Positions 13,362 through 60,313 of a stretch of 64,000 nt of DNA are shown here, piece after piece. Position 1 is the first letter of the stretch; the number at the start of each line of letters is the position of its first letter. The notes under the pieces were generated by a model that saw only the letters and a program-made list of their open reading frames with translations, was not told where the DNA came from and made no database searches. Location of the stretch: NCBI GenBank assembly GCA_951406725.2, contig OX597825.1, positions 4,340,001-4,404,000 on the forward strand, written 5' to 3'. The DNA comes from Octopus vulgaris. Its lineage: Eukaryota. Both the position numbers and the translations under genes were made by a program.

Positions 13362-13572
13362 ATAGATCGTTAGCCACTACACACATTTTTATCTCTCCTT
13401 TTTTTGTTTCCTTAATTCTCTCCCTGTTTTTTTCTTTGTCTCCCTTTCTATAGAAGAGCGTAGGCTCGAAACGTAAAAGACTTTTCTCTATTCCTGAGCG
13501 TTATACTAATACATCTGTTTGTTTTGTATACCACATGCCTTCGTCTTTTGTGGGTTTCGTAAACTCTCCCTA
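13362..13572 (+). mobile_element. ~200-bp interspersed repeat with hammerhead-like motif (Penelope pseudo-LTR-like), copy 1
   Basis: Aligns along its length with 47113-47309. Contains CTTT-CTATAGA-A-GAGC-GTAG-GCTC-GAAA-CG-TA-AAAG at 13444-13479. Confidence 0.75.
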
Positions 13573-15629
13573 CCTTAATAAATGTCAATGATAGAAATTT
13601 AAAGTAAGATTAGTTTGATATTTTGCACTTAAGTTTATATGTAAAAGGAGATTGTAAAGAGTTGTACTAAGCGAAAACTGAACGGCACAAAATACTCTTA
13701 TTACACGATCCGATTTGCTGCTGCGAAAAATAATGCGACCAATTTCAGTCTGCATTCAGAATTATGTGATATCATTTTCCAATGAATTGATATCAACAAT
13801 AGTCATTCCTATATAGTTCTGCGTCTCTTACATAACGCGATTGAACCGTATAATTATCAATATACTCCTTTCCTGCTTTATGCTTGGTTACACAATGTTT
13901 CAGGAAATTGTTGGTTCCTCATAGACAAAGACCTTCTCCGAAATTGAAACTTAAACATTGAAAACACGACGAGAATGGCAGCGTATATCCCTTTTATTGT
14001 CCCATTAAATATTATGGAATTCATATTTACCTTCTGAATTTGGAATTATAACATTTACACAAAAGCTACCGAAATGATATCTGAATGATATTTACCGAAT
14101 GTACCAATTAAAGTCTGAATCCATTTTTAAGGAAAAAAACTTAAATAGAGAAAACACTCTCCTTTAATTAGCAACTGCACAGGTTTATAATTACTTCTCA
14201 TATTACAGAACCATCGAAAATTAAATTCACTGAACCACATTTCCAAATAAAAGGAAAATAAAAACGGGTTTATATCATATTTAATATGTAATTTTTATTC
14301 ATTGAAAAATCACGAATAGCATGTTTATGTATTAGTTGTTGGAGATTTATACTTACTATAGAGGACCCCCCTGCTTGAACCGCCGAAGTGTTTCGTAGTC
14401 TATGAGGTAGAGATACAATGCGTCCCGATTGTCTTTGATGCTGATATAGTTTAGAAAATATGCTTTCCTGCATGTAGTAAAAAGTTTGCTTCCCAACCAA
14501 ATGGATTCTGCTTTAGTCCCCTTGCATGGCAGCTGCGGCAAATATCTTCTACTATAGCCCCCGGGTGGCTAAAACCGTGTAAGGGAATTGTGTTCACGGA
14601 AACCCACAGAAGCTCATCGCTGAATTTGCTCCGGGATAGCTCACTACACAAAGAAAGCCCTAATGTTACAATTCAGACGAGACAATTCGCTTCGAAATGA
14701 GTCGAGAGCGGTAGACACCGATATTCTTTCATTATTGTGACCTATATCAGTACCAAGCACTCGGATCAAACCGAGACGAATGGAATCTCGGGTCCATTAC
14801 TTTTATACAAACACAGTAAAATCTCTTTGCCGATATGCCATGGCGTTGTACACGTGAAAGCAAATTAAATCACGAATCAAAAGCAGGTGTATTACGGTAA
14901 ACATTACTGATCGCACATACAGGAACAGTGTGTGTGTGTGTGTGTGTGTGTGTGTGTTTTGTTCATACGCCGGATATGCTGCGGGATAGTTCTCTACACA
15001 ACGCCGAGAGTGTTAAAGGACACCGAAATCTCATAGACTTGGCGAGACACTCTATACTCAAAATTCTGCACCAATTTATTCAAGTAGGCGGGAACTATAA
15101 ACGACTAAAATATGTAGAAATTCTTTTGCGCTTCCTTACTAGAATTAGTAGAGCGTCACTTAAAATGCCTCGTATATATTTTCTGTTACTCAAAATTCCG
15201 AGTTAATACCTCAGTGACATCGAGTTTGCCTTTCCTTATCATGGTGACCATAAAAATTCCTAATCAACAGCGGCAAGATAGTAGGATTTCAAGCACATCA
15301 GATTACTTGCTGCGGATTACTTGCTGCGCGCGTGCGTTTGTGTGTGTATGTCTGCGCATATAACCATGTTTGGATGTCAAATCGTCATCTAGTTTGAAAC
15401 TATTTGATGTAATTTCCGAATCGTATGAGTAAATACAAGTAGTGGATAAATCCTTCTCAACCAACAGGGTACAGTCTTACAGAAGAGCATATTCGATGGT
15501 TCAATAAAGGATATAGAATTGCTGTTCAAGAAAGCACCTTTTTTCAATGCTTTCGAACGTACGTCAGACAGATTCAGGACCGTTATTTGACGCAACTGGA
15601 AATAAGAATTCCAAAATTTGGACAAATCC

Positions 15630-15912
15630 AGTAATTTCATGAGGGGAGGAAGTCAATTACATCAGGCCCAGCGCGCAGCTAGTATTTATTTCATCGGCCT
15701 GAAAGAAAGGTAAAGTCGACTACGGCAGAATTTGATCTGAGGGAGAAACAAAAAGTCGACTACATCGACCCCTGTATTTAACTGTTACTATCGACCTCGA
15801 GTGGATGACTGTCAACCTCGGCGGAAATTTGAACTCAGAACGCCAGACCGGACAAAATGCCGCTAACCATTTTGTCCGTCCTACAGACGACTCTGGCAGC
15901 ACACCGCCTTCG
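15630..15912 (-). mobile_element. SINE family A, decayed, with internal duplication
   Basis: Two partial GTC(G/A)AC(C/T)..GGC(A/G)GAA..TTTGA blocks, plus a head ending CTGGCAGCACACCGCC. Confidence 0.75.
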
Positions 15913-16789
15913 CAGCAACAAATATTAATAGCAGCGTAGGTACATACCAGACATATACTGCAATCAATTATTGATTTATTAAAGCGCCACTATATCAATT
16001 AACATCTTACTTTTATTACAATCATTATTAGTGTTGTCAACATGTATAATTTTCAGGTCTTTCTTTAATTTTCTTTTAAATAAAATTTACGACTCTTTAT
16101 ATGAAAGCATATTAAAAATGGTTTCCGAAAGAGACGCAGAATGTATTTGGGAAACCAAAATTTCTAACACGAATTTACATTTTGTATGCTTTAAACGTTA
16201 CTAAATCTATAAATATTAGATGAAAGCAAGAATCAGTGATTCAGATTTTCTTTATGTTATTGAGTAATTGCTTGTCTTTATGTTTGCTTATTTTATTTGT
16301 ATTTTATTTGCTTTCTTCAACTAAATTCCATAAACCACATTAAGTACAAGTTTCGTGGTTAATATAGCAGAGTTTCAACAGTTCGTTAAATCATTCTGTC
16401 GGTAAAATTCCATGGGATAATCCATCACAGCAACAAATAAATTTGGTAATTAAGTAAGTATACTGTTCCTTTTACAGAGAAATAATGTGCAAACACCTGT
16501 TTCAATCATCATTAACGCACTGTGTCAAAACGAGTTTCTTTCGGAAATGTGTATAATTCAAGAGAATGAAATATTCTATGAGGAAACCAAACTCAAACGA
16601 ATGGGAATATTCTCACCAAGTTTTGACGTAACTTAAAGCTACTACTTCTACCTACTTTAATTCTCTCTCTCTCTCTCTCTCTCTCTCTCTCTCTCCCGTC
16701 TTTCTCTCTCCCCATTTCTCTTTACGTCTCTCTCAATCTCTTCTCATTGACTCGCTTTTATTTCCTTTTTTCACTCTTTCTCAATCTTC

Positions 16790-58059: not shown

Positions 58060-58790
58060 TACAATGCTGCATACTATTTGAGGGCTTCAATTGCTAAACC
58101 CCTTCTGTCCAACATAAACATTCATAGGAGGAAAAGAATGGCCTCTAGACTATCAAAGATAATGAAATAATATCATCTCTCAGGAAGCAGCATTGTCCCA
58201 ATTTCGTAAACCAGGGCAAATTTATACCCGGAGACAGCCCAACGAAGTCTACAACCCTAACCCTGAATATTAAGTCCTTTGCTGTGATGTATAGAGGTAG
58301 CTCTGTGATAATTTGGGAAGTCATATCACGAAATGTTTTTGGCCATTTAGGTATTGTATATGGTAGAGTTAACGATAATGATTATTTGAGTATTCCGAAT
58401 GATCATACTCTTTCCATGGTTCAAACGCAGTTTTCTGTAGAATGGCAATACAATCTTCGAGGAGAGTAGTGTATACATTCACACGGTAAATGTTGTTCAC
58501 AGCAGGTACAAGAACACAAAATATGACGGAGACCACTTGGATTGCAACACACAGACACAGTCACACATCCACCGGTTCTCTTTATAATTGAAAATAAATA
58601 GAGCATTTCGAAACAGTGAGCCGTCAATTCCTTCTGATCTCGCTAATGAAAGAGCTATTTGAAATTTTACTTAATCAGTGACTGAGCACATGTAAAATTT
58701 TGCCGCAACAGAATTTGAAAACTCATTATGAGGCACCACGACTAGAGACACCCAAGCCATTGTGTGCAGGGCTCAAAAAGATCCACAATT
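58060..58790 (+). mobile_element. Highly degenerate Tc1-like transposase
   Basis: AKPLLSNINIHRR and VMYRGSSVIIWEVISRNVFGHLGIVYGRVNDNDYLSIPNDHTLS resemble the Tc1 KPLL and KHGGGSVMVWG motifs. Confidence 0.7.
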
Positions 58791-60245
58791 GCATTTCTGA
58801 ATGCAAGGCATTTTATTATAAATAAAACGATGCTTACTAACTTCGCATCGTATTTTATTTCGAACATATATGCATTTTATTAAGATACTTATGAACAAGG
58901 CGTGTATAGGATAGAGAAAAATCTATATAGCAAACTATTACGTTAAGCGAAGTTAGTTTATTATGAAAACAAGTTTCTAAGGAAAAGCATGTTGAAAACA
59001 TTATTATCTAATGCATATTATTTTTGGTTTATTATCTTATTGACCACAGGTAAATAAAAACAGCAATTGTTGCAAAATGTTCCAAGCTGAGGAAATGATG
59101 CTAATAATGCCAAAGAACCCTACCCAGCATCGTAATTATATTGTGTTTCTTAAATACACTCTCGCACACATATATTCGCTCTCTACCTTTCACGCCTTCA
59201 CACCTTGTAGCTATCTTTGTATACTTCTCTCGGTCTGTCTATTTTCCTCTTTCTTTTCCGCTTGTCAGCATTTATTATTTGCTGTATACACGAAAATATT
59301 GAGGTAACACAAATAATAATGCGCTGGGAAAATTCGCTACAAAACTGCTTTGTTATCTACTTTATGTGTTCAAATTCCTAAGTTTCCCCATTTATATTTC
59401 ACCATTTAGCTCCTCTCAAACACAACCCGATGTGACATCATGCATTATGGTCATGAGTTGAGAATTATCGACTTCAACCGAATACACATTCACGAAGAAT
59501 CATATATGTATTCCAAGAAATAAATATAATTGGCAACTAGTAATATTTATCTACTAAATATTAAAATTAGTAACATACGAAAATTGCTGTTGCATAGAAT
59601 ATAATAATAATGCGTACTCTTGTAAACGATCGTAAGAACAATTAAAATTTATTATGAAATATATATTAATATAAGGTTATACACGTACAAATATACACAC
59701 GAACACACACTTATACACAGAAGATTATATGTTTAAACATCCGCACATATTAATGTATGCATGCATGGATTTATAACTTTGGAAATGAATGAGGTGGAGA
59801 TTTAAAGGTCTTTGGTATTATTTATTCACCATTACACATGACTCTTTTGCTAGTAAGATTTACAAAATTATACATGGAGTACAAAGCGTAACATATCTCC
59901 TATTAGAAATTCTTCAGACAGAATATCGAATAATAAAAAATCTACATTTGGATGAAGCGTTTATATATAGTTAGAAATCAGGGGCCCTTCATCTAGTCAC
60001 AAGGGACAAAGAAACAAATCTAGTAATTAAGAAAACGAAGAGAAGACTAGAAAATGAAGTAATAAACACACACCACATATAAGTATAAACACGTATGCAT
60101 ACTCACACAAGTATATATATATTATTTATATACGCACATATATATTAACATAAATATGTACACACACACACACACATATATATATATATATATAAACGAA
60201 GAGATGACAGCGGAAAAATCAAAAGTTATATTATGAAATTTATCA

Positions 60246-60313
60246 GCTTACAGCTGTTTCTGCTGAGTATGATAATTGTGTACCGGGATAAAATACTATA
60301 GCTTCATCAGAAC
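60246..60313 (-). ncRNA. Hammerhead-like motif with canonical core and long stem II
   Basis: Minus strand: GTT-CTGATGA-AGCTATAGTAT...ATACTCAGCA-GAAA-CAGCTG-TA-AGC, with palindromic ACAGCTGT stem III. Lies about 55 bp upstream of (TA)n on that strand. Confidence 0.6.

What the first reader, a model, noticed from the sequence alone, without database searches (positions are those of the whole stretch)
13444..60313. Five hammerhead-like ribozyme motifs from four unrelated repeat families in 64 kb
Seen: motifs at 13444(+), 27336(+), 45195(+), 47178(+) and 60246-60313(-) share the order stem I - CUGANGA-like box - stem II - GAAA - tiny, usually palindromic stem III - GUA - stem I. Each sits about 45-115 bp from the end of its repeat, and four are next to microsatellites. 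Established: Penelope-like elements and retrozymes carry minimal type I hammerheads whose palindromic stem III allows dimeric cleavage. Inference: this genome hosts a dense, diverse set of non-autonomous ribozyme-bearing repeats with natural core variants (U3-A8, U4C, A6U) that a CUGANGA-only search would miss. They could cut nascent transcripts or yield circular RNAs.
Basis: partly seen in the sequence, partly recalled or inferred. Interest (0 to 1): 0.72.

Follow-up and report, generated by a model that had tools for sequence, protein, structure and literature searches.

The report
Penelope retrotransposon tails carrying variant hammerheads
The five motifs are real hammerhead-shaped sequences at the cut-off tail ends of four families of Penelope-type jumping genes (two tied directly to their coding genes, two likely so), an already described arrangement at an ordinary density for this genome; the one unusual point is that the largest family has a normally fixed core letter changed (A6 to U), which is predicted to weaken self-cutting but is untested.

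Summary
All five motifs are present and beyond chance, but 13444 has lost the essential G5. They are not free-standing retrozymes. They are the 3' ends of 5'-truncated Penelope-like elements (PLEs). Family B (27336) still carries its GIY-YIG endonuclease in the window. Long family A copies carry reverse transcriptase plus endonuclease (Neptune/Nematis type). C and D trace, indirectly, to Hydra-clade PLEs. Of 120 loci, 20 have an inverted second copy and none a direct tandem one. The density is ordinary: 29 hits in 600 kb of blind sample against about 2 in shuffles. Minimal PLE hammerheads, the extra base after A9, palindromic stem III and U3-A8 are published; U4C is known from a viroid. A6U is fixed in family A (29 of 29 copies) across subfamilies that keep the rest of the fold; I did not find it in print, but one key paper was unavailable. 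None of 60 copies starts at the predicted cut. No cleavage data. The scan noted the same kind of motif elsewhere in this genome and A6U in other genomes.

The parts
13356..13572 (+). Family A: 5'-truncated 3' end (pLTR) of a Neptune/Nematis-type PLE
   Evidence: Shared with family A loci from 13356; family 3' end; long copies carry RT and EN
13445..13479 (+). Hammerhead A1: A6U core plus extra A, with a copy-specific G5A change, predicted dead; predicted cut after 13475
   Evidence: family majority
26124..27423 (+). Family B: young 5'-truncated PLE copy (EN remnant, microsatellite-rich 3' UTR, pLTR) lying between (TA)n runs
   Evidence: 98-99% identical pLTR copies elsewhere
26144..26614 (+). 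Frameshifted remnant of the CX4CxxC linker and GIY-YIG endonuclease
   Evidence: Pfam GIY-YIG E 0.006 here (below cut-off) and E 6e-5 (above cut-off) in the long copy L121
27336..27373 (+). Hammerhead B: U3-A8 core, stem III palindrome ACCGGU; predicted cut after 27370
   Evidence: weak Rfam HH9 match; same motif at both ends of the long copy L121, 4411 nt apart
45188..45240 (+). Family C: about 50-nt remnant of a likely Hydra-clade PLE 3' end
   Evidence: sister family C' lies downstream of Hydra-type ORFs
45195..45230 (+). Hammerhead C: U4C core, 3-bp stem II with GNRA loop, stem III palindrome damaged in this copy; predicted cut after 45227
47112..47309 (+). Family A: 5'-truncated 3' end between (GATA)n/(TA)n and a TA-rich run
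47178..47213 (+). Hammerhead A2: A6U core plus extra A, stem III ACGU, stem I reduced to 3 bp; predicted cut after 47209
60191..60319 (-). Family D: old 5'-truncated 3' end of a likely Hydra-clade PLE, ending in (TA)n
   Evidence: link to EN remnants in L254 and L264
60246..60313 (-). Hammerhead D: canonical CUGAUGA, A-A at the base of a shortened stem II, stem III ACAGCUGU; predicted cut between 60249 and 60248
60341..60446 (+). Inverted piece of family D's long 3' extension at the 5' side of the D copy (PLE-type inverted junction)
   Evidence: Shared with D loci; matches the extension seen in D copies

Best explanation
The five motifs are minimal type I hammerhead sequences in the 3' terminal repeats of four families of Penelope-like retrotransposons (shown for A and B, likely for C and D), left behind as short 5'-truncated copies that likely do little where they sit. 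Shown: a fixed 3' end with an optional extension, variable 5' ends, inverted second copies, (TA)n flanks, and RT plus GIY-YIG coding sequence upstream in long copies. Inferred mechanism: the element's endonuclease nicks (TA)n, and reverse transcription starts at one of two sites about 55-170 nt past the hammerhead and usually stops early, so nearly every copy keeps the motif. In a full-length element the motif occurs in both terminal repeats; two copies in one long transcript would pair through the family-specific stem III palindrome and would cut slowly, probably with help from the element's protein, to release a unit-length RNA. Selection would act on these master elements, not on the scattered copies, which decay. 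Solitary copies such as these five have no intact same-family partner nearby and would rarely cut.
For: B: endonuclease remnant in the window; long copy L121 has RT and EN pieces between two direct hammerhead-bearing repeats plus an inverted copy. A: of 30 loci picked on upstream sequence, 7 have EN similarity on the element strand and 6 of them RT similarity too; motifs DKG, YIDD, CX4CxxC. C: sister family C' (75% identity over about 200 nt) sits downstream of the ORF in 5 of 5 loci of that family; its 727-aa ORF has RWK, DKT and CxCX5C, the Hydra diagnostics (PMC8557442 section 11). D: an inverted D 3' end is joined directly to a Hydra-type EN remnant in 2 loci. Second copies within about 1.5 kb: 20 of 120 inverted, 0 of 120 direct. 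(TA)n follows 30 of 30 B and 29 of 30 A copies; the longer 3' end is present in 13 of 30 B, 10 of 25 D and 11 of 30 C copies. Selection on the fold: in copies picked on upstream sequence only, core changes were 3.0% against a base-matched 10.3% in D (0 of 20000 resamples as low) and 6.6% against 11.1% in C (P 0.04). Stem I pairs change on both sides between sister families (C-G to U-A in C versus C'; C-G to G-C in A versus its A6 relatives). Literature: PMC4209133, PMC11167929, PMC8557442.
Against: No cleavage was measured. C and D were not joined to an intact ORF of their own; the links rest on a sister family (C) and two decayed loci (D), and Pfam did not recognise their EN remnants or the Hydra-type proteins. 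In A, core and flank changed alike (2.1% against 3.0%, P 0.19). Minimum-energy folds of the five window segments, alone or as homodimers, do not give the complete hammerhead. The A stem III duplex is weak (-1.7 kcal/mol). 0 of 30 B and 0 of 30 A copies picked on downstream sequence start at the cut site; this fits an uncut or re-ligated template and gives no support for cleavage in vivo. A 5' ends cluster about 100-110 nt upstream of the cut (14 of 30), which leaves room for a short non-autonomous A subunit.
Confidence: 0.85

Rival explanations
1. One reading: non-autonomous retrozyme-like repeats that cut themselves out of transcripts and form circles.
For: Most copies are short and non-coding; A 5' ends cluster; retrozymes are proposed to derive from PLE terminal repeats (bioRxiv 10.64898/2026.07.22.740005, part 1 of 5 read).
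Against: 0 of 120 loci have a direct tandem copy, whereas animal retrozymes are tandem 150-450 bp units with canonical hammerheads (PMC7229834 passages). Coding sequence lies upstream in A and B. The spread of 5' ends is that of truncated retrocopies.
Confidence: 0.07
2. The motif in family A, and perhaps in all four, is kept as a structure or binding site for the element's protein near the start of reverse transcription, and no longer needs to cut; A6U was tolerated for that reason.
For: U6 in 29 of 29 copies of the most abundant family sampled (9 matches in 600 kb). A6C cuts at under 0.1 per min (PMC3088659 section 8). Hammerhead mutants did not affect insertion by an anole PLE in vitro (PMC11167929 part 2). 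No copies start at the cut.
Against: Among 25 U6 rows from several subfamilies the remaining core positions, not only the stems, stay conserved (5.2% against 15.3% downstream), as catalysis would require. Those rows are related and were found with queries that contain the motif.
Confidence: 0.3
3. The solitary copies have been co-opted by the host and cut nascent transcripts, in cis or through pairing of two transcripts of the same family.
For: Very high copy number; B and D palindromes give fair self-duplexes (-8.3 and -11.1 kcal/mol); 23 of 30 B copies keep an intact motif.
Against: Copies accumulate changes (A1 G5A, C stem III, D stem II; only 5 of 21 C copies keep the whole core). No host exon among 122 of 217 frames scanned. 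Published PLE minimal hammerheads cut little even as dimers (PMC4209133 part 2).
Confidence: 0.05
4. Chance matches in AT-rich DNA.
For: Relaxed descriptors give 0.3 to 1.3 hits per shuffled window.
Against: Each motif is the majority sequence of a multi-copy family at a fixed place near its 3' end; 29 hits against about 2 in the blind sample.
Confidence: 0.01

Closest known systems
Minimal type I hammerheads (min-HHR) in the terminal repeats of metazoan Penelope-like elements (Cervera and de la Pena 2014, PMC4209133; main text parts 1-2 of 4 and supplement file 2 parts 1-2 of 3 read)
   Same: Type I order, 2-4 bp palindromic stem III, extra base between positions 9 and 10.1 (A), U3-A8 variant (B), U-rich 5' flank, mostly solitary truncated copies, many families per genome, second copy on the opposite strand nearby.
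   Different: A6U (family A) and U4C (family C) are not among the representative rows of their Fig. S3 that I read; C has A10.1-U11.1, and C' and D have A-A there, instead of the usual G-C.
Neptune/Nematis-type PLEs (PMC8557442 passages; PMC3846280 passages)
   Same: A and B proteins: DKG, GxKF-like motif, RT, CX2-5CxxC linker, C-terminal GIY-YIG; partial tandem plus inverted structure; optional tail; insertion into (TA)n.
   Different: Neptune versus Nematis was not resolved by a tree; the long copies read were frameshifted.
Hydra-clade PLEs (PMC8557442 section 11)
   Same: C' and a young full-length family (L296): RWK/RWR, DKT, CxCX5C linker, (TA)n insertion, hammerhead present; D's EN remnant is 35-37% identical to them.
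   Different: Long 3' UTRs make the units longer than the under 3 kb described (5.6 kb between the two motifs in L296); for C and D the assignment is indirect.
Poseidon element of the green anole (PMC11167929, parts 1-2 of 4 read)
   Same: Two alternative 3' ends downstream of a hammerhead; AT-rich targets; genomic copies span the uncut motif.
   Different: Different clade; its hammerhead was shown to cut with protein help, which is untested here.
Animal non-LTR retrozymes (PMC7229834 passages; bioRxiv 10.64898/2026.07.22.740005 part 1 of 5)
   Same: Type I hammerhead with a weak palindromic stem III; link to PLEs.
   Different: Retrozymes are tandem, non-coding and carry canonical hammerheads; these families are dispersed, inverted rather than tandem, and lead to coding sequence.

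Membership tests
PLE minimal type I hammerhead | Order stem I - core box - stem II - GAAA - stem III - UH - stem I | tested here: met
   All five copies and the four family majorities
PLE minimal type I hammerhead | Conserved core CUGANGA or U3-A8 | tested here: inconclusive
   Met by B (U3-A8) and D; A has U6 (29 of 29) and C has C4 (16 of 22); A1 lacks G5
PLE minimal type I hammerhead | Short palindromic stem III | tested here: met
   Family level in all four; broken in the window's C copy
PLE minimal type I hammerhead | Located in the terminal repeat of a PLE | tested here: met
   Direct for A and B; indirect for C and D
PLE minimal type I hammerhead | Self-cleavage as a dimer | not testable with these tools
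   Needs an in vitro assay; only contigs were available for RNA
Penelope-like element, C-terminal EN+ | RT followed by GIY-YIG endonuclease | tested here: met
   B: Pfam RVT_1 (weak, below cut-off) and GIY-YIG; A: similarity to B RT and EN; C': RT motifs plus an EN whose Atlas neighbours include a cluster with 11% GIY-YIG
Penelope-like element, C-terminal EN+ | Partial tandem terminal repeats, inverted 5'-truncated copy, optional tail | tested here: met
   L121 and L296
Neptune/Nematis clades (A, B) | CX2-5CxxC linker and DKG motif | tested here: met
Neptune/Nematis clades (A, B) | Placement in an RT tree | not tested
   No reference set was fetched
Hydra clade (C, D) | RWK, DKT and CxCX5C linker | tested here: inconclusive
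   Met by the sister family C'; D's remnant shows the linker only; no ORF of C itself was found
Non-LTR retrozyme | Head-to-tail tandem units of 150-450 bp | tested here: not met
   0 of 120 loci with a direct second copy; no such array in the window
Non-LTR retrozyme | No coding capacity in the family | tested here: not met
   A and B are coding families
Non-LTR retrozyme | Abundant circular RNA | not testable with these tools
   No raw RNA reads were offered

The most novel reading that the evidence does not exclude
Family A carries a naturally selected A6U hammerhead, kept through several subfamilies (position 7 = A, U or C) and tens of thousands of insertions, that works as a deliberately slow or protein-switched ribozyme; together with A6 sister families, U4C and U3-A8 families and family-specific stem III palindromes that act as a self-pairing code, this genome is a ready-made allelic series for testing whether Penelope elements need to cut their RNA at all.
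Probability: 0.3. Interest if true: 0.55.

Novelty: new variant of a known kind. Interest (0 to 1): 0.3.

Why it matters
Mostly as annotation: about 1e5 hammerhead-shaped motifs in this genome (extrapolated) are tails of Penelope-like elements, and standard searches miss many of them (Rfam missed A2 and scored B far below threshold). The role of the hammerhead in PLEs is still open (PMC8557442 passages; PMC11167929). A very successful lineage with a fixed change at a catalytically important position, next to sister lineages with the normal base, gives a direct natural comparison. If A6U cuts, the hammerhead consensus and search descriptors need widening. If it does not, these elements spread without cutting and the motif has another job.

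Tried and rejected
The repeat finder on the whole window was swamped by microsatellites, as was the shown part of the whole-window Rfam scan. RNA: no RNA holder listed on record; the 8 of 21 listed runs that I laid were all contigs, which cannot show cleavage ends. Walking upstream from family C copies reached about 550-800 nt of non-coding sequence and no ORF. RT or EN matches in C loci L062 and L080 and D locus L114 belong to neighbouring A- and B-type insertions. Pfam and PDB sequence searches did not recognise the Hydra-type proteins; direct comparison of L296 with the B RT was marginal; homologues of L296 were mostly unnamed. Allowing G3-C8 and A3-U8 cores added no further family motif in the window. 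A weak Pfam match to a bacterial toxin domain at 62486-62737 is below its cut-off and treated as chance. Luense et al. on small PLE hammerhead variants (cited in PMC6765202) was not held; it, and supplement file 1 of PMC4209133 (not searchable), may already list A6U. Searches for A6U in print: 'hammerhead + A6U + ribozyme' (2 listed) and 'hammerhead + CUGUUGA' (2 listed), none relevant by title and abstract start; 'hammerhead + octopus + Penelope' gave no study of these motifs; one search gave nothing useful.
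Full report
Setting. The window is G000:C12:4340001-4404000 in a 2.8-Gb, microsatellite-rich animal genome. Octopus-like is my inference, shared by earlier scan notes. No host exon was recognised among the 122 of 217 longer frames scanned; only DNA-transposase remnants passed Pfam's cut-offs.

Observation. All five motifs are present with the stated order. A relaxed descriptor found 7 loci against a mean of 1.27 in 30 shuffles; a stricter one found 5 against 0.26 in 50 shuffles. 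The copy at 13444 fails because G5 is mutated to A. The copy at 45195 has a damaged stem III palindrome and shares only about 50 nt with its family. The copy at 60246 has lost part of stem II. Only B (27336) equals its family majority throughout the motif.

Families. DNA searches gave 2629 (A), 542 (B), 290 (C) and 169 (D) first-look candidates, of which 40 each were scored and 30 fetched; these are lower bounds, not copy numbers. B copies are 98-99% identical to the window copy, A 85-89%, D 70-86%. To measure density without bias I fetched 60 stretches of 10 kb at round-number positions on 29 contigs. They hold 29 descriptor hits against 1-3 in 10 shuffles. That is one per about 22 kb, about 2.9 per 64 kb and about 1e5 genome-wide. 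The window is ordinary. The descriptor was tuned after seeing the families, but the shuffles used the same one.

What carries them. In all families the shared sequence stops at a fixed point downstream of the motif and fades gradually upstream, as in 5'-truncated retrocopies. (TA)n follows 30 of 30 B and 29 of 30 A copies; a longer 3' end occurs in 13 of 30 B, 10 of 25 D and 11 of 30 C copies. Second copies within the 3-kb loci are inverted in 20 of 120 and direct in 0 of 120. These are the structures described for PLEs (PMC8557442, passages; PMC11167929, parts 1-2 of 4).

Coding links. B: the window copy runs 26124-27423 and includes a linker and GIY-YIG remnant. L121 has RT and EN pieces between two direct copies of the motif 4411 nt apart, plus an inverted copy. 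A: among 30 loci chosen on upstream sequence, 7 show EN and 6 of these RT similarity on the element strand; DKG, YIDD and CX4CxxC are present. A and B are therefore Neptune/Nematis type; no tree was built. D: in L254 and L264 an inverted D 3' end is joined directly to a decayed ORF end with a CxCX5C-type linker, 35-37% identical (L264) to two young families. C: no ORF of its own was found, but a sister family C' (75% over about 200 nt) lies downstream of the ORF in 5 of 5 loci, and that 727-aa ORF has RWK, DKT and CxCX5C, the Hydra-clade diagnostics (PMC8557442 section 11). The C and D assignments are indirect.

Is the fold selected? In copies chosen on upstream sequence only, with CpG positions left out, core positions changed at 3.0% against a base-matched 10.3% in D (0 of 20000 resamples as low), 6.6% against 11.1% in C (P 0.04) and 2.1% against 3.0% in A (P 0.19) (rows covering the motif: 29 of 30, 21 of 27 after dropping 3 duplicate loci, and 29 of 30). 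Between sister families stem I changes on both sides: C-G to U-A from C to C', and C-G to G-C from A to its A6 relatives. This fits selection on master elements, with decay of individual copies: all core bases match the majority in 20 of 29 A, 20 of 29 D and 5 of 21 C copies.

Core variants. U3-A8, the extra base after A9 and the palindromic stem III are published for PLEs (PMC4209133, parts 1-2 of 4). U4C is a known viroid variant with lower in vitro activity, and a natural A6C cuts at under 0.1 per min (PMC3088659, passages and section 8). A6U is present in 29 of 29 upstream-chosen A copies. Among 43 non-targeted relatives (48 minus 5 duplicates) 25 have U6, with position 7 being A, U, C or G, and 17 have A6. 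Within the U6 rows core and stems vary by 4.6% against 15.3% in the next 70 nt; the rows are related and were found with motif-containing queries, so this is suggestive only. I found no A6U among the representative rows of PMC4209133 Fig. S3 or in two literature searches. The paper most likely to list it was not held. Earlier scan notes report A6U PLE families in this and other genomes; I did not check the other genomes.

Do they cut? Untested. Stem III palindromes are family-specific: self-duplex energies are -1.7 (A), -8.3 (B), -7.9 (C majority; -1.7 for the window copy) and -11.1 (D) kcal/mol, and cross-family values are no better than -2.7. The five window copies therefore have no intact same-family partner nearby. 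Minimum-energy folds do not give the full hammerhead. Templates thus spanned an uncut or re-ligated motif, as reported for the anole element, whose hammerhead cut only with protein and was dispensable for insertion in vitro. Published metazoan minimal hammerheads cut weakly even as dimers.

Mechanism. Shown: location, family structure, coding links for A and B, conservation in D. Inferred: target-primed insertion into (TA)n with early termination; slow, probably protein-assisted dimeric cleavage between the two terminal repeats of a full-length transcript; little activity of solitary copies. Confidence 0.85 for the identity as PLE ends. Whether the family A motif is catalytic is open; about 0.3 that it is not needed for cutting.

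Verdict. A real feature of a known kind at ordinary density. The family-wide A6U core is the one point that may be new and is easy to test. Novelty: new variant of a known kind. Interest 0.3.

Noticed in passing
window 27188-27360, runs X13 and X7: In two runs guessed to be RNA, single low-depth contigs of family B show clustered A-to-G changes (11 T>C places listed in X13, G-rich loose ends that run across the hammerhead core in X13, one such loose end in X7), rare or absent in the large runs. This looks like A-to-I hyper-editing of RNA from inverted copies, which would destroy the core. No matched DNA; a weak hint.
   Followed up: partly
L296 2078-7682 (G000:C8:21321000-21330000) and L297: A very young, abundant Hydra-type PLE with an open frame of about 960 aa, an asparagine-rich insert and a long-stem-II hammerhead in both terminal repeats; it shares the stem III palindrome with family D.
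   Followed up: partly
flanks of fetched loci and L299-L358: At least eight further multi-copy or family-like hammerhead motifs, including more U3-A8 and U4C families and two G3-C8 candidates (L304, L309).
   Followed up: no
A superfamily alignment: U6 goes mostly with A at the cleavage site (21 of 25) and A6 mostly with U (14 of 17). This may reflect shared descent only.
   Followed up: no
window 47179-47190 and 13445-13456: The family A core box with A7 is nearly self-complementary, and the G5A change in A1 makes it fully so; this could favour an inactive duplex.
   Followed up: no
window 45240-45400: The sequence after hammerhead C matched none of the 40 candidates scored other than the window itself, so the C copy lost its 3' end or was interrupted.
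   Followed up: partly
window 6714-7097(-) and 63660-63998(-): Remnants of DDE DNA transposases.
   Followed up: no
window 5097-5330: Short frame that resembles a non-LTR reverse transcriptase fragment (recalled resemblance, no database match) beside an (AAT)n run.
   Followed up: no
window 52608-52817 and 53789-54053: A 16-nt-unit minisatellite and a long (TGA)n repeat.
   Followed up: no
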